A model generated the notes under the pieces. The model was not told where the DNA came from. It worked only from the letters and a program-made list of their open reading frames with translations, and searched no databases. Positions 25,271 to 41,577 of a DNA stretch of 42,114 bases are shown piece after piece. The stretch's first letter is position 1. Each line of letters begins with the position of its first letter. The stretch is from positions 1-42,114 of the IMG/VR virus record IMGVR_UViG_3300020045_002395. The stretch is one strand, 5' to 3'. The stretch is from a virus. Its lineage: Duplodnaviria > Caudoviricetes. The translations under genes and the position numbers were made by a program.

Positions 25271-25917
25271 TCCAGATTTATTACAAGGATGAACAAAAGG
25301 CGGCGTGTTATCCTTTTTCTGATCTATACTTTAACGACTCGCTTACCATTTTCTTTGAAAATAGTCCTATTAAAAAGCTTGTTATGGAAACCGAGGCCGA
25401 TAAAATAGGGGTTTGTTCTTGGAAACTTAGAGAAAAATTCAGAATGAACGTGTGCCGGCCTAGAGAATTGACTGAGGAAGTGATAAATACTGATTATGAC
25501 GTGCTTTCTTTTACTTGTAACACCAAATACCACAAAATGTTAGGCGCTGCGGATATTTGGCACAAAGGATTTCGCACTTCATTGACTAAAATAATGGATT
25601 CTATCGGCCAACGGTGCCCTGGTGAGGTCAAACAACCGATTTATCAAAACGCATTCATGGCAAAGCGTGAAATATACCAAGACTACGTTAAAAACTGGCT
25701 CAGTCCGGCAATGGATGTGATGATTAACGATCCAGAGATCAATAAAATGGTTACGGTCGACAGTAATTACAGCAACTTGGCAAAGAAAGACGCTGCCGAC
25801 GCGAATTACCTAAAGGAAAAAATAGGCATGCCTTACTATCCACTAGCACCATTCCTACTCGAAAGACTTTTTTCAATTTACGTACAAACTAAACGCATAA
25901 ATGTAACATGGCTGTAG
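25255..25917 (+). CDS. Putative glycosyltransferase (DUF4422-like)
   Basis: GVCSW, YQNAFMAKREIYQDYVKNWL, PFLLERLF; cluster context. Confidence 0.55.
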   Translation: MAAKLIQIYYKDEQKAACYPFSDLYFNDSLTIFFENSPIKKLVMETEADKIGVCSWKLREKFRMNVCRPRELTEEVINTDYDVLSFTCNTKYHKMLGAADIWHKGFRTSLTKIMDSIGQRCPGEVKQPIYQNAFMAKREIYQDYVKNWLSPAMDVMINDPEINKMVTVDSNYSNLAKKDAADANYLKEKIGMPYYPLAPFLLERLFSIYVQTKRINVTWL

Positions 25918-26864
25918 CTTTTATTACCGGAATTTCTGGTCAAGATGGATCTTATTTATCTGAATTACTTTTAGAGAAAGGATACGAAGTTCACGGCATG
26001 GTAAGGCGAATAAGCCAGCCTAATTTATCGAACCTTGTAAATGTTATTGATAAAGTAAAGCTACATACTGGGGATATGACAGACGCTACCAGCATCTTCA
26101 GAATCATCAATGAAGTTAAGCCGGATGAGATTTACAACTTCGCTGCAATGTCACAGGTAAGGGATTCATACGATCACCCGGACATTACACAAGATATTAA
26201 CTGTAACGGGTTGATGCGCATCATGGAAACGGTGCGAGCATTAGAACTTGACTGTAAAATATATCAGGCTTGCAGCTCTGAAATGTTTGGAAAGGTTCAA
26301 GAAACGCCACAGACAGAGACAACGCAATTCTATCCCCGTTCACCTTATGGAGCTTCTAAAGTTTCTGCTTACAATCAGGCAAGGATTTGGCGCGAAGCTT
26401 ACGGGATGAAAATCTATTGCGGTATTCTGTTTAACCACGAATCACCAAGACGCGGGCCTTCATTCTTATCCAGAAAGGTTTGTATCGCTGTTGCTGAAAT
26501 AGCAAAAGGCAAACGTGATAAATTAATATTGGGTAACCTTGACGCGAAAAGAGATTGGGGTTATGCAAAGGAGTATGTTGAATGGATTTACAGAATCATG
26601 CAACACCATACACCGGAAGATTTTGTAATAGCCACTGGCGAAACTCACAGCGTAAAGGAATGGGTTGAGCTTGCTTTTGCTCATGTTGGTATTACCGATT
26701 GGGAATCATATGTTGATTATGATAAATCACTAACACGACCCGCAGAAGTTGATCTACTTTTAGGTGACGCTACCAAGAGCAAGAACGTTTTAGGGTTTTC
26801 GCCAAAGGTTAAATTCGCTGAACTTGTTGGTATTATGATGGACGCTGAACTTGAAAAGTTATGA
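25908..26864 (+). CDS. gmd: GDP-mannose 4,6-dehydratase
   Basis: ITGISGQDGSYL, PDEIYNFAA, SSEMFG, PRSPYGASK, GILFNHESPRRG, LGNLDAKRDWG, RPAEVDLLLGD. Confidence 0.97.
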   Translation: MAVAFITGISGQDGSYLSELLLEKGYEVHGMVRRISQPNLSNLVNVIDKVKLHTGDMTDATSIFRIINEVKPDEIYNFAAMSQVRDSYDHPDITQDINCNGLMRIMETVRALELDCKIYQACSSEMFGKVQETPQTETTQFYPRSPYGASKVSAYNQARIWREAYGMKIYCGILFNHESPRRGPSFLSRKVCIAVAEIAKGKRDKLILGNLDAKRDWGYAKEYVEWIYRIMQHHTPEDFVIATGETHSVKEWVELAFAHVGITDWESYVDYDKSLTRPAEVDLLLGDATKSKNVLGFSPKVKFAELVGIMMDAELEKL

Positions 26865-27169
26865 TACACGAAGACGAAAGACGAACGCTAGAAGATTGGC
26901 CAGAGGCTAAGATTATAACCGCGAAACAAGATTGTGTTTTAGGTGGCCACTATCACAAGCTGAAGACTGAAAAGTTTATTCTTGTCGAAGGTGAATCTAT
27001 TTTCACAGTCCATACGCAAATAGGAGACGTTACCAAGAAAATGAAAAAAGGTGTATTGTATACCGTTGATCCTTTTACCGGGCATTCTTTTAAACTCACG
27101 AAAGGATCTATTTTGATTGGCATTTGTTCACACCCATTTGATTCAACAGACGATTATAAGATATGGTAA
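26861..27169 (+). CDS. Cupin, NDP-sugar isomerase/epimerase-like (FdtA/WxcM-like)
   Basis: HEDERR, GGHYHK...E.F, H in the second cupin motif, FDSTDDY end. Confidence 0.72.
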   Translation: MIHEDERRTLEDWPEAKIITAKQDCVLGGHYHKLKTEKFILVEGESIFTVHTQIGDVTKKMKKGVLYTVDPFTGHSFKLTKGSILIGICSHPFDSTDDYKIW

Positions 27170-27202
27170 GAACTTCATACGGGAACAAAAAATAAATATC
27201 AC

Positions 27203-27358
27203 ATGGCTTTAATTTATTGGAACTACAGGAAAAGCAATGGTGACTTTTGGATCAGGTTCGGAAGATTCGGAATAGCCTTTTATAAAAAACCACTGTTTTC
27301 GGATCGTATATTTAATCGTAAAAAATATTTTGGTAGGTATATTCAAATTTTAAAATAA
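27203..27358 (+). CDS. 51-aa basic aromatic-rich protein (not in ORF track)
   Basis: MALIYWNYRKSNGDFWIRFGRFG...; TAATG overlap with the next gene. Confidence 0.6.
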   Translation: MALIYWNYRKSNGDFWIRFGRFGIAFYKKPLFSDRIFNRKKYFGRYIQILK

Positions 27359-28011
27359 TGGCTTTAATATCATTGATACATCCGAGTAGAGGGAGGGCTA
27401 AGAAGTCTTTTGATACGGTTATAAAATGGATTGAGAATTCAGGTGTTCAGGTTGAGGTTATTATAAGTCTTGACGACAGAGACTTAACTAAATATAAGTA
27501 CACAGAATTATACGATGACTTACCTGTTAGTAAAAGGATAATTATTAATGATAATAGTTGCGTAGTCGAGGCAACAAACCACGCGGCAAAATTTGCAAAA
27601 GGAGACATACTAATTTACCTCAGTGACGATTTCGATTGCCCATCCAATTGGGGCCTATCAGTGTTGAAAGAATTTGAGGGGGAGGATAGGCCCTTACTTT
27701 TGAAAGTAGATGACATGCTTCAGAAGTTCGATGTTCCGGTACTTACTATTCCAATGATGAACCGGTCGCTTTACGAAAGGCTTGGATATTTTTGGCATCC
27801 TGAATACAAGTCGATGTTTGTAGATTGTGACCTATTCGAAACAGTTAAAAAGATGGGTGCATTAAAGAACGCACAACACTTAAAGTTTGAACATCAACAC
27901 GTAAGCATAGGCAAAGCTCCAGACGACGAAACATATCGAAACAGCGCAAAGAATTGGGATCAAGGTAAAGCAGTATTCGCAAAACGTAAAGCCGCAGGGT
28001 TTCCGATATGA
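27358..28011 (+). CDS. Glycosyltransferase, GT2/GT-A
   Basis: ISLIHPSRGR, GDILIYLSDD, YKSMFVD. Confidence 0.85.
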   Translation: MALISLIHPSRGRAKKSFDTVIKWIENSGVQVEVIISLDDRDLTKYKYTELYDDLPVSKRIIINDNSCVVEATNHAAKFAKGDILIYLSDDFDCPSNWGLSVLKEFEGEDRPLLLKVDDMLQKFDVPVLTIPMMNRSLYERLGYFWHPEYKSMFVDCDLFETVKKMGALKNAQHLKFEHQHVSIGKAPDDETYRNSAKNWDQGKAVFAKRKAAGFPI

Positions 28012-28106
28012 GTAGAATAATGTCTTGGGGTGATTCCGCACCTCCTTGGTGGTTGATTATATTGCTAGGGGTAATTGACTTAATACTTTGGATATTCTTT
28101 ATATGA
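28008..28106 (+). CDS. 32-aa single-TM peptide (not in ORF track)
   Basis: MSRIMSWGDSAPPWWLIILLGVIDLILWIFFI; ATGA overlaps on both sides. Confidence 0.55.
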   Translation: MSRIMSWGDSAPPWWLIILLGVIDLILWIFFI

Positions 28107-28660
28107 AGTTAAGCATACTTATCCCAACTCTACCAGAACCATACAGCATTAACAAGCTTGCTAGACTTATGGCTATACTAAAACCACAAGTTGAAAGACA
28201 TCCAGACGTAGAGATAAGGATTAACGATGCTGGCAAATCAATGCCAACAGGAACAAAGCGAAACGAGTTGATAAAGAATAGCGATGGGGAATATTTCGTT
28301 CAAATAGACTGTGACGATATTGTTCCGATGTACTACGTTGACGAGTTGATGAAAGCTATTGAACAAGGCCCAGACGTTATTTCTTTTATCGGTGAAATGA
28401 TAACCGATGGAGTTAGAAGAAATGATTTCACAATTAAGCTTGGCAGTAAGTACGAAGAAAAGCACGGGCATTATTATCGCTATCCTAATCATCTTTGTTG
28501 CTACAAAAGATCAACAGTAGGACACGTTAAGTTCCCAGACATTTGGGTTCAAGAGGATTATCGATGGGCCTCAAGTATCCAGCACCTACTAAAGTCAGAA
28601 GTCCATATTAATAAGAAGATGTACACCTACGATTTTGTAGACCCTAAAAAAAGAAAATGA
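28103..28660 (+). CDS. Glycosyltransferase, GT2
   Basis: KLSILIPT, KRN, GEYFVQIDCDD, ED..W. Confidence 0.88.
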   Translation: MKLSILIPTLPEPYSINKLARLMAILKPQVERHPDVEIRINDAGKSMPTGTKRNELIKNSDGEYFVQIDCDDIVPMYYVDELMKAIEQGPDVISFIGEMITDGVRRNDFTIKLGSKYEEKHGHYYRYPNHLCCYKRSTVGHVKFPDIWVQEDYRWASSIQHLLKSEVHINKKMYTYDFVDPKKRK

Positions 28661-29322
28661 TACCTACAGCATTAGACTACGCAAAAAGGATAGCATATTC
28701 ATCAGAAAAGACTTTGATGTTTACTTATGAGCAATCTTTAAAATACGCTGATAAAGAAGGGGTGTACTGTGAATGCGGTGTGGCCGCAGGTGCGCAGATT
28801 ATCGCTATGGCTTGTGGTGCTCCAAATAAAACTATCTACGCGTTTGATTCTTTCGAAGGCATTCCACTTCCTAGCAACAGAGACGACCAAATGCCAGGAA
28901 TTGCAATGTTATCAGAAACAGAACGTAAGGCGTTGCCTGATCCTGGGAAACAGAAGTTAGAAAGTAGTGGAGCTACTTCAGTAAGTGAGTACGATTTCTG
29001 GCAACACATCGACACTTGTTTTGGACAAAAAAAACATAATGTAAAAACGGTTTCTGGATGGTTCGAAGATACCTTGCCATCTCTATCAACATCAATAGAG
29101 CCTATTGCTATACTTAGACTTGACTCAGACTTATACAACTCTACTTACGTGTGCTTAAAAAACCTTTACCCGAAAGTTATTAAAGGCGGGTTGGTAATCA
29201 TTGACGATTGGGAGTTGAAAGGTTGCCGGGATGCTTTTTACGATTACTTCAACGAGCAATTAAATCCATACGAATCCCCAGTAGTACAATTCATTTCAAA
29301 CATAGCTTACTTTTACAAATGA
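28657..29322 (+). CDS. TylF/MycF/NovP family sugar O-methyltransferase
   Basis: ECGVAAG, FDSFEG, GWFEDTLP, ILRLDSDLY, GGLVIIDD. Confidence 0.93.
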   Translation: MIPTALDYAKRIAYSSEKTLMFTYEQSLKYADKEGVYCECGVAAGAQIIAMACGAPNKTIYAFDSFEGIPLPSNRDDQMPGIAMLSETERKALPDPGKQKLESSGATSVSEYDFWQHIDTCFGQKKHNVKTVSGWFEDTLPSLSTSIEPIAILRLDSDLYNSTYVCLKNLYPKVIKGGLVIIDDWELKGCRDAFYDYFNEQLNPYESPVVQFISNIAYFYK

Positions 29323-29930
29323 TAATACTTTCTATTCTTATTCCAACAATACCGGAACGTGGTGCGATGTTCACGAAACTTTACAATGAAGTTCACAGGC
29401 AGATAGCTTACATGGATACCGTACATCCTACATTAGGTAAGATTGAAATATTAATCGATGACTCACCAAAGTTTTTGAATGGGGGTTTATCTATCGGTAA
29501 GAAAAGAGAGGCATTAGTAAAACGATCAGAGGGGGTTTATTTATGTTTCTTGGATGATGATGAAGATATAGCACCTAACTACGTTGAGACATTGGTACGT
29601 CTTTGCCAGTTCAATGCTGACGTGTGTACGTTCAGAAATATTTCAAAGTTTGATACTTATTGGATGCTGGTTGAAATGGGGTTGAAGTATCCCAACGATC
29701 AGGCATCTAGTAGCTTTATGATTCGCAGGCGTCCCTGGCATATCTGCCCGGTTAAATCGGCCTACGCAAAACTATATCCATTCGAAGATTCAAATTACGG
29801 TGAAGACTTTACATGGATGGAAAAGGTTTTAACACACTGCACAACGGAAGCAAAAAGCGAATCGGTAATACATTGCTATAACCATTCTAAACATACATCG
29901 GAGGCCGATAAAATAACTAATCATGCATAG
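29319..29930 (+). CDS. Glycosyltransferase, GT2 (paralog of 28103-28660)
   Basis: LSILIPT, KKREAL, YLCFLDDDE, GEDFTW. Confidence 0.88.
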   Translation: MIILSILIPTIPERGAMFTKLYNEVHRQIAYMDTVHPTLGKIEILIDDSPKFLNGGLSIGKKREALVKRSEGVYLCFLDDDEDIAPNYVETLVRLCQFNADVCTFRNISKFDTYWMLVEMGLKYPNDQASSSFMIRRRPWHICPVKSAYAKLYPFEDSNYGEDFTWMEKVLTHCTTEAKSESVIHCYNHSKHTSEADKITNHA

Positions 29931-30528
29931 TCAAAACGCAGAGGAACAAATTATACTGGACTACTTCAAAGGTAAAACCGGAACGTTCATAGACATAGGC
30001 GCTAACGATGGTATTACCTTTTCAAACACTTATGCGCTTTCTAAATTAGGCTGGTGTGGAGTGTTGATCGAACCTTCTCCACGGGCTTTCGCTAAGTTGA
30101 AACAGAACTATGAAGATACTAAGGGATGTTTTTATCTTTACAACTATGCGATAGGAACGAGTAACGGAAAAGTAACTATGTGGGAATCTGGAGAACTTGT
30201 AAAAACGGGTGATGTTGGATTAGTTTCTACATTAGTCGAGAAGGAAACCGACAGATTCAAACGCACAGTTAAGTACGAAGAAATTACGGTCGATTGCTTC
30301 CGGTGGAAAACAGCTATGAACCGTTGGAAGTTTAAGAAGTTTGATTTCATTTCGATTGATATTGAAGGGCTTGAGCTGGAAGTTTTGGAACAGATTGATT
30401 TATCCGAAACTCAATTGATTTGCGTTGAAACAAACGGGGATCAATTCAAGAAAATTAAGTTTGATGAGATGTTGAAAGACTTCAAAGTAATTTATACTTC
30501 ACCTGAAAATTTAATATACGCAAGATGA
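29923..30528 (+). CDS. FkbM family methyltransferase
   Basis: SQNAEE, FIDIGANDG, GVLIEP, DFISIDIEGLE. Confidence 0.92.
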   Translation: MHSQNAEEQIILDYFKGKTGTFIDIGANDGITFSNTYALSKLGWCGVLIEPSPRAFAKLKQNYEDTKGCFYLYNYAIGTSNGKVTMWESGELVKTGDVGLVSTLVEKETDRFKRTVKYEEITVDCFRWKTAMNRWKFKKFDFISIDIEGLELEVLEQIDLSETQLICVETNGDQFKKIKFDEMLKDFKVIYTSPENLIYAR

Positions 30529-30716
30529 TACGACCATTAGACAGTATGCCAGTAGTAAGTCATGAGGATGTAAAACCCATGTATAACGAACATGAAATAC
30601 TTGACAAACTAGCTCAAGCAGTGAACGGAATGAGAGAAATCAAAGGGGATCAACGCCAAAGACTTGATTTAGAGTTAATGTATTCACTTGCTATTGCGTT
30701 AAAAAATAAAGTATGA
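30525..30716 (+). CDS. Hypothetical protein
   Basis: ATGA-coupled on both sides. Confidence 0.65.
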   Translation: MIRPLDSMPVVSHEDVKPMYNEHEILDKLAQAVNGMREIKGDQRQRLDLELMYSLAIALKNKV

Positions 30717-31336
30717 TAGTAGTAAACTTTGCAACACAGCAATACAGGGCCGCTCAAAGAAGATTAATGAACAGCTTAGGCGGTAATGGGTTGTTTATTT
30801 CAGACTATCCTAAAGACTGGAAAACTCATTCAGAAAGCCCTTATGAGTTTAAGATTAACGCAATCGAAAAGGCATTCGAACAAGACGATATAGTTCTTTG
30901 GGTTGATAGTTCGATGTACTTAAAAGGCGACCTGTCAAAGATTGAAGAAATTATAAAGCGTGACGGTTACTTCCAAGAAGAAGCCGGCCATTATTGCGGG
31001 CGATGGACCAACCAACATACGCGTAATTACTTCAAGGTTACAGAAGAAGAAATGAAACAAGGACCGGGAGGATTTATAATGTTCTCAGCTGGCCTACTTG
31101 GATTGAATCTAAAGTCAGAACTTGCTATGGAGTTCTTTTATAAGTGGAAAGAGTCAGCTAAAGCAGGATGTTTTGCAGGATCATGGGAAGACCACCGCCA
31201 TGACATGACTTGCGCCAGCATTATTGCACAGCGTTTAGGTATGAAGTACCAGCGTGGTGGATCTCATTTAAGTTATGTAGGTCCGGGTTATTCAGCGCCG
31301 GAACCTGGTTCAGTATTTTATTGTCAAGGCTTATGA
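30713..31336 (+). CDS. Putative GT-A glycosyltransferase (DUF1647-like)
   Basis: FKINAI...VLWVDSS...AG...HRHD. Confidence 0.65.
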   Translation: MIVVNFATQQYRAAQRRLMNSLGGNGLFISDYPKDWKTHSESPYEFKINAIEKAFEQDDIVLWVDSSMYLKGDLSKIEEIIKRDGYFQEEAGHYCGRWTNQHTRNYFKVTEEEMKQGPGGFIMFSAGLLGLNLKSELAMEFFYKWKESAKAGCFAGSWEDHRHDMTCASIIAQRLGMKYQRGGSHLSYVGPGYSAPEPGSVFYCQGL

Positions 31337-31521
31337 TAAACATAATTAAAGGTTGGTTCCGGTTCCTATTCGCCAAGCGTTCGCAGATGGCTAGTGATAG
31401 GCTTGTTATTTGTTTAGATTGTCCGTTCAGGAAAGGTTATTTCTGCGGTGTGTGCTTTTGTGAGCTTCACGCAAAGGCTTCGTTAGAAGAAGAAGAATGC
31501 CCTAAAGGGTTTTGGAAATGA
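31333..31521 (+). CDS. Small Cys-rich Zn-binding protein
   Basis: R..ICLDCP...CGVCFC...K...CPKGFW. Confidence 0.75.
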   Translation: MINIIKGWFRFLFAKRSQMASDRLVICLDCPFRKGYFCGVCFCELHAKASLEEEECPKGFWK

Positions 31522-32309
31522 AACTCGCAGCAATCTATAATGTTTGGGCAGACTGGGATATTTTAAAATATTCAGTAGATAACATATCACCACTTGTTGA
31601 CGGTATAATTATAGTAGCATCAGAGAAAAGCAGCTATGGTGAATACTGCGAAATACCAAATTATTGGAAAGACATAGTTTTAATACGAGAACCAATGTTT
31701 CAGATGCCTATGTATTCGGAAACAGATAAAAGAAATTATGGGTTATCATTGGCTAGAAAAGCTGGATATACTCATTTTATTTCAATGGATTCAGATGAGA
31801 TGTATGATAGATTGGAGTTTTATAAATGGAAAGATTACTTAGATCATAATCCTGAAATTAATGGACTTGTTTGCGCTTCGCAGGTGTACGTTAAAAGCCC
31901 TAGTTTAACAATAGGACTTGATACAACGCGCGTTCCTTTCATCCATAAGATTACACCAACATTAAAACATGAGTTCAACAGAAGCTATCCTTTTGCGTGG
32001 GAAGGCAATGCAATCCGGATCGATCCAACTAGAAGTTTAAACATTAATTCCGGTGTTGAATGGTCGGATATTGTGATGGATCATTACAGCTACGTCCGTT
32101 CAGATATACACCGTAAGATTCGAAACAGCACCGCCAAAGCAAACATTGAGCGAACCAACATAGCGAAAAATTTCTTTCACCTGAAGGAGGGGGATATTTG
32201 TGAACTTTATCCCGGTAAGCCTCTGGTCCGTGTGCCAGTAAAATACGGTTTGCCCGAATTCTATGGGTCTAGCGCTGAAGATTTACAATCTATACCGCCA
32301 AGTTGCTAA
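31518..32309 (+). CDS. Glycosyltransferase, GT2-like
   Basis: VDGIIIV, KRNYGL, THFISMDSDE, DHYSYVR. Confidence 0.78.
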   Translation: MKLAAIYNVWADWDILKYSVDNISPLVDGIIIVASEKSSYGEYCEIPNYWKDIVLIREPMFQMPMYSETDKRNYGLSLARKAGYTHFISMDSDEMYDRLEFYKWKDYLDHNPEINGLVCASQVYVKSPSLTIGLDTTRVPFIHKITPTLKHEFNRSYPFAWEGNAIRIDPTRSLNINSGVEWSDIVMDHYSYVRSDIHRKIRNSTAKANIERTNIAKNFFHLKEGDICELYPGKPLVRVPVKYGLPEFYGSSAEDLQSIPPSC

Positions 32310-34735: not shown

Positions 34736-34923
34736 GAACAAGATTAACAACTGGCAGATCATCAAAATTGAATATTGGTAGTTCAAGAACGAATTTATCA
34801 AAATCAAATCGATCTAAGTTGTCCGGAGTTCCAGGAAATACTCCTAATGATTCAGTGTTTAGAATTTTAGAAGATAGTGATTTTAGAATAACAGAAGATG
34901 GAAACTTTAGAATACTTCAATGA
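34732..34923 (+). CDS. Small protein with tandem R(I/L)xEDxxF repeats
   Basis: FRILEDSDFRITEDGNFRILQ. Confidence 0.7.
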   Translation: MRTRLTTGRSSKLNIGSSRTNLSKSNRSKLSGVPGNTPNDSVFRILEDSDFRITEDGNFRILQ

Positions 34924-35099
34924 TGGAAAGAATATTTAAACACTGGAGAACATCGGTAACTGGATTATTAATTGCGGTTATGACTGTTATGTTTTGGCTT
35001 GGTAAAATAGATTCTGAGCAATGGATTATTTGTATTGGTGGCGTGGCGACTGCTGTAGGTTTACTCTCTAAAGATTCAATTAAAGAAAATGGCAAATAA
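34920..35099 (+). CDS. Two-TM holin-like protein, 59 aa (not in ORF track)
   Basis: MMERIFKHWRTSVTGLLIAVMTVMFWLGKIDSEQWIICIGGVATAVGLLSKDSIKENGK. Confidence 0.65.
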   Translation: MMERIFKHWRTSVTGLLIAVMTVMFWLGKIDSEQWIICIGGVATAVGLLSKDSIKENGK

Positions 35100-37732: not shown

Positions 37733-38503
37733 ATGAGACTAACTATTTTATTACTTCTTATTTCGGTTTGCTCGTTTGCAGCAATGAAGCGCGAAGAGCT
37801 TTCGTATAACGGCATCAAATACCTGAAGTACACACCAACGACAATGCCGATACGTGGTGCGGTGTTGTTTCTACACGGATTAGGGGAACGCGGGACCAAT
37901 CTATCACTACTCGAAAATACCGAAATTCCAAAGCAGTTAAAGAACGGATTAGAGGTACCTTATATTGTGGTGTGTCCTCAGTTGCCGTCAAGTTACGCAG
38001 GTTGGTACGGAAATATAACCTATCCAATAATTGATTTAATGAAGACATACAATCTAGATCTTCATATCACAGGCTTATCCGCTGGCGGGATGATAATTCC
38101 TACACTTGTTTATGAGAAGATGGGAACGTTCAAAACAGCGGCGACTATTTGCGGACAGGTGGACGGAACCATAAGGAATAAAATTCTACCTGAGATGGGA
38201 AAAATACCGTCTATACACTACTATGACCCGAACGATTATACAATCTCATACGGTTACTTAAGCGTGAAGGACATGGTCGAAACTTTGAAGCTACAGGGAA
38301 AAGATATTGATTTGATTAAATTAACCGGGTCACCTAATGCACATTCAATCTGGCCACAGGCTTACCAAACTACTCAGTACTGGAAATGGTTGGACTCTAA
38401 AACTACGACTGTTCCGGTTACAAGATTGAACATAGTAAAAACAGAAGTAGACGTAGCCACGGGGCGGATAATTCATACAGACAGTAACGGTAAAGAATAT
38501 TGA
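37733..38503 (+). CDS. Secreted alpha/beta hydrolase (esterase/peptidase-like)
   Basis: Signal peptide MRLTILLLLISVCSFA; FLHGLGE, VVCPQ, GLSAGG nucleophile, D (NDY), H (AHSIW). Confidence 0.87.
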   Translation: MRLTILLLLISVCSFAAMKREELSYNGIKYLKYTPTTMPIRGAVLFLHGLGERGTNLSLLENTEIPKQLKNGLEVPYIVVCPQLPSSYAGWYGNITYPIIDLMKTYNLDLHITGLSAGGMIIPTLVYEKMGTFKTAATICGQVDGTIRNKILPEMGKIPSIHYYDPNDYTISYGYLSVKDMVETLKLQGKDIDLIKLTGSPNAHSIWPQAYQTTQYWKWLDSKTTTVPVTRLNIVKTEVDVATGRIIHTDSNGKEY

Positions 38504-38504
38504 T

Positions 38505-38696
38505 ATGGAAGAAAAGAAACCAGAAGAACGTTATAAAGGGGTTACCTATATCAGCGTTCAGTCAAGCGAATTGCAACCGGAATTTTACGACCACCTTGAG
38601 AAGTTTATCATGGGGTTAGATAAATGCCGGATGCTTGTTTATACTACAATTCAATCAGGAAAGCCTCCTGGCTGTCCCCCGGGAGGATGTCATTAA
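38505..38696 (+). CDS. 63-aa protein ending in a Pro/Gly/Cys motif (candidate peptide precursor)
   Basis: C-terminus TIQSGKPPGCPPGGCH. Confidence 0.7.
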   Translation: MEEKKPEERYKGVTYISVQSSELQPEFYDHLEKFIMGLDKCRMLVYTTIQSGKPPGCPPGGCH

Positions 38697-39103
38697 GAGC
38701 AACATATCAACTATTTTTGCTCGTTTTGGGGGTTCTTTTTGAATCCGTACGGGAAGCGCAAGGTACAGCGTGCTATGCGTTGATTTGTTTTGAAGATATT
38801 TATTTGAGGTCGTTCATTTACTATTGTATGGAGCACTTCATTATTATTTCACTTGTGATAATGATCTGGAAAAACTCACAGCAGGATGATGACATAAAGA
38901 CGGACAGGTTTTTTGTAGTTTTGTGTGTGTTGGATTTCGCGGATTATTTGGTAACAGGGAATAACGTATGGGAGAAACTCCCATTGACTTATTCAGAAGA
39001 TAGTTGGTATTTTATATTGCCTTTAAGTATGAACGTAGTTTCGGTTGTATGCTTTATAATTTACGCAAACTGGCAATGGAGAATTTCGAATGGCAAGCAG
39101 TAA
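38687..39103 (+). CDS. Polytopic (about 4 TM) membrane protein
   Basis: Four hydrophobic segments; start revised to MSLRATY. Confidence 0.75.
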   Translation: MSLRATYQLFLLVLGVLFESVREAQGTACYALICFEDIYLRSFIYYCMEHFIIISLVIMIWKNSQQDDDIKTDRFFVVLCVLDFADYLVTGNNVWEKLPLTYSEDSWYFILPLSMNVVSVVCFIIYANWQWRISNGKQ

Positions 39104-39231
39104 TAGGGGCGAGTATATTCGCATTTAGTTGGATTGGATTAAGTTACTTGAGGCGATATTTGAATAGTTTAAAGAGGAAAAAGGTAAGGAGAAACATTTT
39201 AAAGGCAATACAAAGGTTAGGCAATGAATGA
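39076..39231 (+). CDS. Single-TM protein with basic tail
   Basis: MENFEWQAVIGASIFAFSWIGLSYLRR...KRKKVRR. Confidence 0.65.
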   Translation: MENFEWQAVIGASIFAFSWIGLSYLRRYLNSLKRKKVRRNILKAIQRLGNE

Positions 39232-39493
39232 GGTTCAAATACTTGTTAGTTTTATAGTAGGATTGGGGGCAACCGTTGGAGGTATGGGGATTTATATCGC
39301 CAGCATTCACAAGGCAAACAACCGAAAACACGAAAAGAACAACGAAGAAATGAAGGCATTGATTGTGCAGGTGGTAACGAAAATTGGGGAGTCATCATCT
39401 GTGATACAAAACTGTTCAAAGATTATTGAAGCCCATTCAGAAGTCTTTTACATTGTTAAATATAAATTCAAAAATGAGAATCCTAATCGTTGA
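39224..39493 (+). CDS. Single-TM plus coiled-coil protein (holin-like or signalling helix)
   Basis: N-terminal TM followed by an amphipathic helix. Confidence 0.65.
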   Translation: MNEVQILVSFIVGLGATVGGMGIYIASIHKANNRKHEKNNEEMKALIVQVVTKIGESSSVIQNCSKIIEAHSEVFYIVKYKFKNENPNR

Positions 39494-39857
39494 GGATAAC
39501 GACAAAACAAGATTGGAGCTTGTTGAGTCGTTGAAAAAAGAAGGTTATAAAGTTGACGCGGTTGATGACGGGGCCGATGCCTTGCGTATGATTAACAACA
39601 ATCGTTACGACTTCGTACTATCTGACCTTAACTTACCCCGCGTGGGAGGTTTAGAACTAGCTGAGAAGCTTGGAGGGGAACCGCCGATGATCTTGTACAC
39701 TTCAGGCAATTCGATAACTGGGTTAAAGGATTTGGCCGACCATTTTAATGTTAAAGTATTTATGACAAATGCCACAATTGACAGCGTTATGAGGATATTC
39801 ACCGAAAGCGTAACGGAAAACTGCCAGATTACAGACAGAATGCTGAAAACTTTATGA
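39474..39857 (+). CDS. Stand-alone response-regulator receiver domain (CheY-like)
   Basis: MRILIVEDN, YDFVLSDLNLPRVGGLEL, ILYTS; conserved Lys apparently replaced (VFMTNAT). Confidence 0.9.
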   Translation: MRILIVEDNDKTRLELVESLKKEGYKVDAVDDGADALRMINNNRYDFVLSDLNLPRVGGLELAEKLGGEPPMILYTSGNSITGLKDLADHFNVKVFMTNATIDSVMRIFTESVTENCQITDRMLKTL

Positions 39858-40288
39858 TCGACAAACTACACCCAAAAGTTCGCCCTATGGCCATTGACTT
39901 TATCGCTAAGGCGAAGACTCAAGGCATTGAAATAAAGATCACGGCTGGGCTTAGAACGTTCGACGAACAAGAAAAACTTTATAATCAGGGTCGTACTACA
40001 CCTGGAAATATCGTCACCAAAGCAAAACCTGGTCAGAGTTTTCACAATTACGGGCTCGCCATCGACGTTGTGCCTATTGTAAACGGAAAAGCAGTTTGGG
40101 AAAATGAAACACTTTGGCAAAAGTTAGGAGTTATAGGGGAGTCGGCCGGCTTTGAATGGGGAGGCCGGTGGAAATTCGTGGATAAACCACATTTTCAGTT
40201 TCCACGTGGAACAAAATACACCACAATCATGCAGCTTAAAATGGCTGGGGATGTGGATCAGGACGGATACGTAATACTTTCTTTATGA
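39854..40288 (+). CDS. Endolysin, M15 L-Ala-D-Glu peptidase type
   Basis: GLRTFDEQEKLYNQGRT, SFHNYGLAID, WGGRW..VDKPHFQ. Confidence 0.95.
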   Translation: MIDKLHPKVRPMAIDFIAKAKTQGIEIKITAGLRTFDEQEKLYNQGRTTPGNIVTKAKPGQSFHNYGLAIDVVPIVNGKAVWENETLWQKLGVIGESAGFEWGGRWKFVDKPHFQFPRGTKYTTIMQLKMAGDVDQDGYVILSL

Positions 40289-40728
40289 AAATCTTAATAC
40301 TACTCCTTTGGCACCCAATAATTTTGGGTTTTAATATCTGGGACAAGAAAATAACGAAGAACGGAGGTAAGCCGGATTACTGGAAATACAGAATCACCCG
40401 TGGAATGGCTGCAATACTTCACGGAGTGTTGATGCTAATAGTTTTCGAGGATGCTTACACGAACTACGGCGAGCTTTCAGCGTGGCAATTACTGGCTTTG
40501 TGGTTTCCGTACGTAACTTTTCAGGTGTGTACATTCTGGATTCAATACGAAATCTGTAGAAACGTTTGGAGCGGTGAGGCTTGGTTATATTACGACCGTA
40601 AGGAAAAAGATTCAGGGATTGTGGATAGGTTCTTTGCGTGGACCGGACCAACTTTTCACGCAATAGCTAAGGTTATGGCATTGGCCGTGGCAGTTCTGTC
40701 GGCTTGGTTGATTTATACAAGGCATTAA
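40285..40728 (+). CDS. Multi-TM membrane protein
   Basis: Three to four hydrophobic segments; coupled to the endolysin. Confidence 0.75.
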   Translation: MKILILLLWHPIILGFNIWDKKITKNGGKPDYWKYRITRGMAAILHGVLMLIVFEDAYTNYGELSAWQLLALWFPYVTFQVCTFWIQYEICRNVWSGEAWLYYDRKEKDSGIVDRFFAWTGPTFHAIAKVMALAVAVLSAWLIYTRH

Positions 40729-40962: not shown

Positions 40963-41577
40963 ATGCAAGAAACAGCAAAGAAATATTTTAAATACCTCAT
41001 AATTCTAGCTATAGTGATTATAGCGGCGGCGGTTTTAATATCCAAGTGCGGGGGTAAAGTCAAGGAAGTTAGAACCGAAAAGAAGGAAGATAAGCGACTA
41101 GTCCATATACAGGACAAGCTTGATAGTTCTTTTAAGGCTGGCAACGACTTAATGAAGCGCGTGAATAAGAAGGCTTTAAAAGATAGCCTCGCTCTAATAG
41201 AAAGCAAACGGGTAATAAAGATGCTTAACTGGAAACTGGAAAAGGCAAGGCAACCGGTTCAGGCTTTAATAGATTCCATTCCAGAACTTGATAGGTTTGT
41301 TGATTTAGGGGATTCAATCCGATTTGAACAGGATACTTTAATCAATACACTGGTTAATCAGAAAGCGGAAATGTGGCGTAACTTCAATAACTTGCTTTCC
41401 ATCGAGCAAAGCAAAACAGCGTTGGAGCATGAGAAAGGATTAATACTAACAGAGCAGCGTGACAGATACCGAAAGAAGGCCGACAAGCGTTTTATTATTG
41501 GCCCATATGTGGGAATTGATTACCGTTTACGGCCATCAATAGGCGTTAGCGTTCAGTACCGTCTACTTAGGTTCTAG
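40963..41577 (+). CDS. Spanin-like protein (N-terminal TM, coiled coil, C-terminal amphipathic beta strands)
   Basis: YLIILAIVIIAAAVLISKC; long helical region; RFIIGPYVGIDYRLRPSIGVSVQYRLLRF. Confidence 0.6.
   Translation: MQETAKKYFKYLIILAIVIIAAAVLISKCGGKVKEVRTEKKEDKRLVHIQDKLDSSFKAGNDLMKRVNKKALKDSLALIESKRVIKMLNWKLEKARQPVQALIDSIPELDRFVDLGDSIRFEQDTLINTLVNQKAEMWRNFNNLLSIEQSKTALEHEKGLILTEQRDRYRKKADKRFIIGPYVGIDYRLRPSIGVSVQYRLLRF

What the first reader, a model, noticed from the sequence alone, without database searches (positions are those of the whole stretch)
38505..40288. Candidate peptide-signalling module wired into the lysis cassette: CPPGGC peptide, 4-TM protein, TM/coiled-coil proteins, orphan receiver, endolysin
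Seen: five tightly overlapping genes lead straight into the endolysin. They encode a 63-aa protein ending SGKPPGCPPGGCH (the two Cys could close a ring), a polytopic membrane protein, two single-TM proteins and a free receiver domain. No kinase catalytic domain or DNA-binding output domain is present. Established: peptide precursor, membrane processor or sensor, kinase and regulator is the Agr-type quorum-sensing layout. From memory, unverified here, Bacteroidota chromosomes carry small proteins ending CPPxC next to membrane proteins and two-component genes. Inference: this could be a kinase-less phage communication or lysis-timing system, or a device that jams a host peptide-sensing pathway. 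It does not resemble arbitrium.
Basis: partly seen in the sequence, partly recalled or inferred. Interest (0 to 1): 0.85.

Follow-up and report, generated by a model that had tools for sequence, protein, structure and literature searches.

The report
Phage peptide-tail lysis control cassette
Many divergent uncultured phages carry, just ahead of their cell-bursting genes, the same unnamed gene set (a small protein ending in a conserved two-cysteine tail, a four-helix membrane protein and two one-helix membrane proteins); the tail likely acts as a signal read by the membrane protein and would set when the host bursts, but this is untested.

Summary
The genes are real (dN well below dS) in a complete, integrase-less 42-kb phage. 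The core is four genes, not five: A (63 aa, predicted beta-alpha-beta body plus tail), B (138 aa, four helices), C and D (one helix each). B occurs in 19 distinct phage-like loci. All 16 with upstream DNA have A ending in GKP...PPG; 15 keep both cysteines, 14 exactly CPPGGC. Selection is on the protein: third positions vary and there is no hairpin excess. A's body is swapped while tail, B, C and D stay alike; the next enzyme varies (four hydrolase families, DUF5675). B has near-invariant Glu-His, Asp-x-x-Asp and Asn residues, predicted on its outer half, and no library match. Agr is not supported: no AgrB likeness, no kinase in 10 records, receiver in 2 of 16 loci. Best reading (0.38): the tail is a ligand for B, and B-C tune the holin-like D. 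Rivals: intracellular holin regulator, Pro-Pro-Gly ribosome-stalling leader, B as peptidase. The scan noted similar layouts (Pro/Gly micro-gene, four-helix protein, lysis genes) on other DNA; no sequence link was found.

The parts
38505..38696 (+). A: 63-aa soluble protein; predicted beta-alpha-beta body (residues 11-50) and flexible tail GKP-linker-CPPGGC-x
   Evidence: pLDDT 93-96 for the body, 51-65 for the tail; no hydrophobic segment
38658..38696 (+). Conserved tail of A (G52 K53 P54 ... C57 P P G G C62 H stop); its last codons overlap the start of B
38687..39103 (+). B: 138-aa four-helix membrane protein of an unnamed family; near-invariant F18, Y45, E49, H50, D83, D86, N92, W95, N116, predicted on the outer half of the membrane
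   Evidence: (pLDDT 92)
39076..39231 (+). C: 51-aa single-helix membrane protein, nearly invariant Glu before the helix, basic stretch after it
39224..39493 (+). D: 89-aa N-terminal membrane helix plus coiled-coil-like part; variable between loci; holin-like by build only
39474..39857 (+). E: stand-alone receiver domain (E7 D8, D51, T76 kept; the conserved Lys is ambiguous, K94 in one alignment); accessory
39854..40288 (+). F: M15 peptidase endolysin; replaced by other enzyme families in other loci

Best explanation
A-B-C-D is a conserved phage gene set at the head of the lysis genes, and it likely controls lysis timing: the tail of A would act as a ligand read by a predicted outward-facing pocket of B, and B with C would then hold back or release the holin-like D. 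Shown: co-occurrence and order, protein-level selection on the tail, exchange of A's body and of the endolysin around a stable tail-B-C-D unit, near-invariant polar residues in B, absence of a kinase, receiver only as an add-on. Predicted: folds of A and B and the N-in/C-in topology of B. Inferred, untested: A has no export signal, so its tail would reach B's outer face only after membrane damage or lysis (of the same cell or of neighbours); the two cysteines would close a ring there; the invariant Lys of GKP would pair with B's acids (E49, D83, D86) or C's N-terminal Glu; D would be the holin-like output. In this lineage the receiver would add an input from host kinases.
For: A precedes B in 16 of 16 loci with upstream DNA; 15 of these 16 were reached through B alone, the window being the query. 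The reverse scan on the tail pattern gave 7 true hits of 11, all followed by B. GKP and PPG in 16 of 16, both Cys in 15, with free third positions; no excess RNA structure (mean z +0.44 over 16 loci). Pairs with 82-87% identical B and the same tail carry different body types (L044/L064, L056/L077), and starred branches of the B tree force at least 3 changes for each of body types 1 and 2: the tail, not the body, travels with B. In L080 an antisense HNH gene separates A and B by about 480 nt and the tail is intact. E49 51, H50 49, D83 49, D86 51, N92 51, N116 52 of 52 sequences; Lys+Arg per residue 0.23/0.16/0.20 for the termini and loop 2 against 0.08/0.04 for loops 1 and 3. C follows B in 17 of 18 loci, D follows C in 16 of 17. 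After D (or the receiver): M15, GH19, lysozyme or CHAP in 7 of 16, a GH19-like protein in 1 more, DUF5675 in 5.
Against: No experiment, no cultured phage and no known homologue ties any step down. A has no signal peptide and the likely host has an outer membrane, so the route to B's outer face is a guess. The tail overlaps B's start, so physical linkage alone can explain why it travels with B. L070 has no cysteines (GKPEDDDPPGTGG) and P0006 has a different ring, so the ring is not universal. D matches no holin family, and a separate holin-like gene exists in the window (34920-35099, PF23809 E 0.003) whose homologue follows D in L086. In L031/L032 the set lies between a portal gene and another large gene with no endolysin beside it; L075 has B without C and D. 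Topology rests on charge bias only.
Confidence: 0.38

Rival explanations
1. Purely intracellular multi-gene holin control: B, C and D form or gate a membrane lesion or ion path, and A stays in the cytoplasm as an antiholin-like or redox/metal-sensing regulator whose cysteines bind metal rather than form a signal ring.
For: A has no export signal; type-2 A proteins carry four more Cys at the N-terminus; B's buried acids and His could line an ion path; antiholins act in the membrane, periplasm or cytoplasm and often overlap holin genes (PMC7182436, passages).
Against: A's folded body is exchanged while B, C and D stay 71-96% identical, which fits poorly with a body-mediated contact; B's conserved residues are predicted on the outer half, away from cytoplasmic A; type-1 A lacks the extra Cys.
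Confidence: 0.25
2. Cis-acting leader: the Pro-Pro-Gly in A's tail pauses the ribosome over B's start codon and so sets expression of the coupled B-C-D-endolysin genes according to the host's translation state; A's product is secondary.
For: PPG is in 16 of 16 tails, including the Cys-free L070, and in P0006; A's end overlaps or abuts the start of B in all loci but L080; PPG as an EF-P-dependent pause motif is recalled, from no call; earlier scan notes read similar layouts this way.
Against: Invariant GKP and paired Cys are kept even where they hold no ATG (L035, L080); no RNA-structure selection; L080 is uncoupled with an intact tail; the body folds and is under purifying selection; it leaves B's own conserved polar residues unexplained.
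Confidence: 0.15
3. B is a new intramembrane peptidase or exporter that cuts A at or near GKP and releases the cyclic tail (AgrB-like work by an unrelated protein), or cuts C or D; the peptide's receptor would be elsewhere, perhaps a host kinase.
For: E-H, D-x-x-D and N are the kind of residues that make catalytic sites; an exchangeable body before a fixed GKP looks like a leader; lipoprotein signal peptidase chains were the top Foldseek rows (5dir, E 0.58, TM 0.41).
Against: The LspA likeness did not hold: VIA Z 4.7, rmsd 5.7, rank 21, hhalign probability 5%; AgrB 0.15%; the predicted site faces outward while A is made inside; no receptor is encoded.
Confidence: 0.12
4. Host-jamming or superinfection-exclusion accessory module unrelated to lysis, which sits beside lysis genes only because late membrane genes cluster there.
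For: No endolysin beside it in L031/L032 or L086; a separate holin-like gene exists; a free receiver could act as a phosphate sink.
Against: Overlapping reading frames run straight into the downstream enzyme in most loci, across several enzyme families; no host homologue found; one weak PADLOC row in 52 members (KwaA, E 0.004).
Confidence: 0.1

Closest known systems
Lysis inhibition by holin-antiholin pairs (T4 T/RI/RIII; ICP1 TeaA/ArrA; PMC7182436, passages read)
   Same: Small membrane and soluble genes next to lysis genes of a lytic phage; a plausible environmental input on lysis time.
   Different: No sequence likeness found; four fixed genes with a conserved peptide-like tail and a four-helix protein with a polar pocket; nothing shown about lysis inhibition here.
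Phage-borne agr cassette (phiCDHM1 agrDBC beside the endolysin; PMC3901668, passages read; record)
   Same: Small peptide-like gene next to a polytopic membrane protein, beside an endolysin.
   Different: B is not AgrB-like; no HATPase gene; A is a folded soluble domain with the Cys pair at the very end; same strand as and coupled to the lysis genes, whereas agrDBC is on the opposite strand; no integrase here.
Arbitrium (AimP/AimR/AimX; features recalled, only abstracts listed)
   Same: Phage-made peptide proposed to inform later infections.
   Different: No signal peptide on A, no TPR/HTH receptor in the set, no integrase; output would be lysis time, not lysogeny.
Lipoprotein signal peptidase II (LspA, peptidase A8)
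   Same: Four membrane helices with a beta-hairpin and conserved Asp/Asn on one face; top but non-significant Foldseek rows.
   Different: Z 4.7, rmsd 5.7; hhalign 5%; no Pfam A8 hit in 35 members.

Membership tests
Agr quorum sensing | AgrB-family membrane peptidase (PF04647) | tested here: not met
   No Pfam family in 35 B members; hhalign against phiCDHM1 AgrB 0.15%
Agr quorum sensing | AgrC histidine kinase with HATPase_c | tested here: not met
   0 of 10 viral records, 0 of 3 near-complete ones
Agr quorum sensing | AgrD precursor with P-X-X-P motif (PMC3901668) and, recalled, an amphipathic leader and a charged segment after the ring | tested here: not met
   P-X-X-P in 3 of 16 tails as read; ring at the very C-terminus; folded soluble body
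Agr quorum sensing | Response regulator with DNA-binding output (AgrA, LytTR) | tested here: not met
   Receiver only, in 2 of 10 records; no output domain
Arbitrium | Secreted pro-peptide with signal sequence (recalled) | tested here: not met
   Highest 19-residue hydropathy 0.62 over 13 A proteins
Arbitrium | Temperate phage with intracellular RRNPP receptor (recalled) | tested here: not met
   No PF00589 integrase; none of 36 further ORFs matched a repressor or TPR-receptor family in PHROGs; serine recombinases were not searched
Holin-antiholin lysis control | At least one membrane helix, next to the endolysin | tested here: met
   B, C, D; position
Holin-antiholin lysis control | Sequence match to a described holin family | tested here: inconclusive
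   None for B, C or D; holins are too diverse for absence to count
Holin-antiholin lysis control | Timed membrane lesion; delay on superinfection | not testable with these tools
   Needs experiment
LspA / peptidase A8 | Same fold | tested here: inconclusive
   Foldseek E 0.58; VIA Z 4.7, rmsd 5.7, 97 aligned
LspA / peptidase A8 | Profile match with catalytic Asp pair in register | tested here: not met
   hhalign 5% over 36 columns against one LspA sequence; no PDB sequence at E up to 10
Proline-codon leader / arrest peptide | Pro-Pro motif next to an overlapped downstream start | tested here: met
   exception L080
Proline-codon leader / arrest peptide | Conserved mRNA structure gating the downstream start | tested here: not met
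   Mean z +0.44 against synonymous controls, none below -1 of 16
Recalled Bacteroidota chromosomal CPPxC / membrane protein / kinase loci | Homology of A or B to chromosomal genes | tested here: inconclusive
   One GTDB scan with close-family patterns gave only a shadow frame; no longer fused form of B (weak); relatives cannot be drawn for a virus record

The most novel reading that the evidence does not exclude
A lysis-released, disulfide-closed peptide (about KPPGCPPGGCH) is a phage-to-phage signal read on the periplasmic face of a new four-helix receptor that, without any kinase or transcription step, resets holin timing in neighbouring infected cells: the first peptide communication system of lytic phages and of phages of diderm, probably Bacteroidota, hosts.
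Probability: 0.2. Interest if true: 0.92.

Novelty: categorically new. Interest (0 to 1): 0.7.

Why it matters
Known phage peptide signalling decides lysogeny in Gram-positive hosts, and lysis inhibition is characterised only in T-even phages and ICP1 (PMC7182436). A small, conserved, enzyme-independent set that plugs in front of any endolysin, with a short synthesisable tail and a receptor-like protein with obvious residues to change, would make lysis control by an outside signal directly testable. Even if the signal reading fails, A, B and C are undescribed families (no Pfam, PHROGs, NCBIfam, PADLOC or PDB name) fixed at the head of lysis operons. The rating 'categorically new' holds under the best reading; under the intracellular-holin or leader rivals it would be a new variant of a known kind.

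Tried and rejected
Complex prediction of B with A, both as alignments: no answer, score 0.00 in two runs, controls not folded; the tool says this is no evidence either way. Fold searches: B, no Foldseek match at E 0.001 in PDB or BFVD, best wide VIA Z 7.5 on generic helical bundles; A, best Z 3.5. LspA lead dropped. ESM Atlas: B best 0.87, unnamed clusters; A no usable feature hit. L002 and L029 are shadow frames. Pattern scans, true of all hits: 1 of 25, 8 of 14, 7 of 11, 17 of 35, 7 of 11 with no new locus; the rest were dropped as chance after profile search or reading. Metagenome scan with close-family patterns: 0 of 287. No B in cultured phages or plasmids. Longer fused forms of B: none among 7996 candidates, weak evidence. 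RNA hairpin over B's start in the window is not conserved. Promoter and terminator scans near chance (20 against 12.9; 5 against 4.1). I first read the receiver as lacking its Lys; one search aligns K94 there, so this is left open. Literature searches gave no paper on this set; CPPGGC had 0 hits; most subscription papers are not in the library. Earlier scan notes gave no sequence match.

Full report
Setting. The window is a whole virus record with direct terminal repeats, 100% complete. It has terminase, tape measure, head protease and portal genes and no tyrosine integrase. Only 1 of 43 gene starts has a Shine-Dalgarno-like 4-mer, against 8% at random places; that Bacteroidota do not use such sites is recalled, so the host is probably, not certainly, Bacteroidota.

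Observation. The six overlapping frames are as described. B most likely begins at 38687, where its 16 close homologues begin. A, B and C match nothing in Pfam or PHROGs, D only weakly; E is a receiver and F an M15 endolysin. All 18 gene pairs tested show dN far below dS or saturated dS.

The family. B has 16 close relatives and 31 representatives at 50% clustering, all 79-149 aa. Its 35 aligned members match no Pfam or NCBIfam family and four unnamed PHROGs weakly, one member each. Scans for B and for the tail gave 19 distinct loci with the window, after merging near-identical contigs (sorted). Ten are IMG/VR records or the window; the others are metagenome contigs that look phage-like by their neighbours but were not classed. 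Three loci (L037, L075, L076) have no DNA upstream of B. In the other 16, A is always there. GKP and PPG are in 16 of 16 tails, both Cys in 15, CPPGGC exactly in 14; L083 has CPPGQQC and L070 has no Cys. P0006, known only as a protein, has GKPPG and a longer ring. The tail scan gave 7 true hits of 11, each followed by B. C follows B in 17 of 18 loci with downstream DNA, D in 16 of 17; L075 lacks both. After D come M15 (through the receiver; window, L001), GH19 (L037; L083 by 39% identity to it), lysozyme (L043, L077), CHAP (L056 below the cut-off, L058), DUF5675 (five loci; a lytic role is recalled, not tested), an unnamed enzyme-sized gene (L044) or small membrane proteins (L032, L086). The receiver is in 2 of these 16 and in 2 of 10 whole records; no HATPase is in any of the 10. 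Five metagenome loci given to those two calls were not held and not searched.

What is selected in A. Third codon positions of GKP and CPPGGC vary freely, and the second Cys is kept where its codon supplies no ATG for B. Folding energy of the tail region is no lower than for synonymous controls (mean z +0.44, 16 loci). In L080 an antisense NUMOD4-HNH gene lies between A and B and the tail is intact; the insertion may be recent. AlphaFold2 gives a confident beta-alpha-beta body and a loose tail. Bodies fall into types: acidic type 1 (window), Cys-rich type 2, and longer or shorter forms (L035, L083, L070). Types 1 and 2 align only over the last strand and tail. They are scattered over the B tree, and pairs with B 82-87% and D 81-96% identical have A only 40-45% identical but the same tail. 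So the tail goes with B-C-D and the body does not; tight linkage is a confound.

What B looks like. Four helices with a beta-hairpin between the third and fourth (pLDDT 92). Charge bias puts both ends and loop 2 inside. The near-invariant residues (F18, Y45, E49, H50, D83, D86, N92, W95, N116; 49-52 of 52) then lie in the outer half. I could not inspect the model's coordinates, so 'pocket' is inferred from helix positions. C has a nearly invariant Glu just before its helix, on the same predicted side. D is variable. Fold and profile searches name nothing; the LspA hint did not hold and AgrB is unrelated.

Mechanism. A conserved basic, proline-rich, cysteine-closed tail on an exchangeable carrier, an outward acidic site in a partner that is always next door, and two small membrane proteins leading into whichever lytic enzyme the phage has: the most coherent reading is ligand, receptor, relay and holin-like output, acting on lysis time without phosphorylation or transcription (0.38). 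The weak step is delivery, since A has no export signal; release by membrane damage or lysis would be needed. Against it also stand the Cys-free L070, the loci with no endolysin beside them, and a separate holin-like gene at 34920 whose homologue follows D in L086. The rivals are an intracellular holin regulator (0.25), a PPG-stalling leader (0.15), B as peptidase or exporter (0.12) and a lysis-independent accessory (0.10).

Known systems. It is not Agr and not arbitrium by their defining parts (see membership tests). It would work most like lysis inhibition. Papers: PMC7182436 and PMC3901668 were read as passages found by term search; all others were seen only as listings with abstract starts. 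Searches found no description of this set; no supplements were read, and phage annotation tables there could hold these genes as hypothetical proteins. Earlier notes of this scan describe similar layouts in other phages; I found no sequence link to them, they are unchecked, and I used them only as the source of the leader rival.

Verdict. Interest 0.7.

Noticed in passing
window 34920-35099 +: 59-aa two-helix holin-like gene (PF23809 E 0.003, PHROG holin E 0.03) 3.4 kb upstream of the cassette; a 50% identical gene directly follows D in L086.
   Followed up: partly
window 37733-38503 +; L001 3963-4811 +: Alpha/beta-hydrolase-like gene with a hydrophobic N-terminus ends 1 nt before A in the window and in L001; not seen before A in the other loci. 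A candidate processing enzyme in this lineage only.
   Followed up: no
L001 7232-7981 -: On the opposite strand: the end of a second hydrolase copy, a C-like one-helix gene and a short frame matching the first half of B (E 9e-6); possibly a decayed second cassette.
   Followed up: no
L001 5797-6132 +: The receiver of L001 is shortened (Pfam positions 1-59 of 111) and the most diverged gene after A in the pair (61% identity).
   Followed up: partly
L080 582-1022 +: NUMOD4-HNH endonuclease gene inserted antisense between A and B.
   Followed up: yes
L032 3821-5057 + (also L031, L042): Cassette lies between a portal gene and a 307-aa gene of a larger phage (89.7 kb record), with a small membrane protein but no endolysin beside it.
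   Followed up: partly
window 25908-32309 +: Block of nucleotide-sugar epimerase, three or more glycosyltransferases and two methyltransferases between head genes and the portal; may glycosylate the virion or host surface.
   Followed up: no
window 40285-40728 + and 40963-41577 +: Unnamed membrane protein overlapping the endolysin stop, and a one-helix coiled-coil protein (DUF6808, E 0.002) that may be a spanin.
   Followed up: no
L050, L064, L065, L071, L077, L080 (gene A): Type-2 A proteins begin with a Lys-rich CxC...CxxC segment (7-8 Cys in all), a possible metal site absent from type 1.
   Followed up: partly
L043, L056, L062, L077 just upstream of A: A 107-118-aa multi-helix membrane protein precedes A in these loci; no Pfam family for the two tested.
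   Followed up: no
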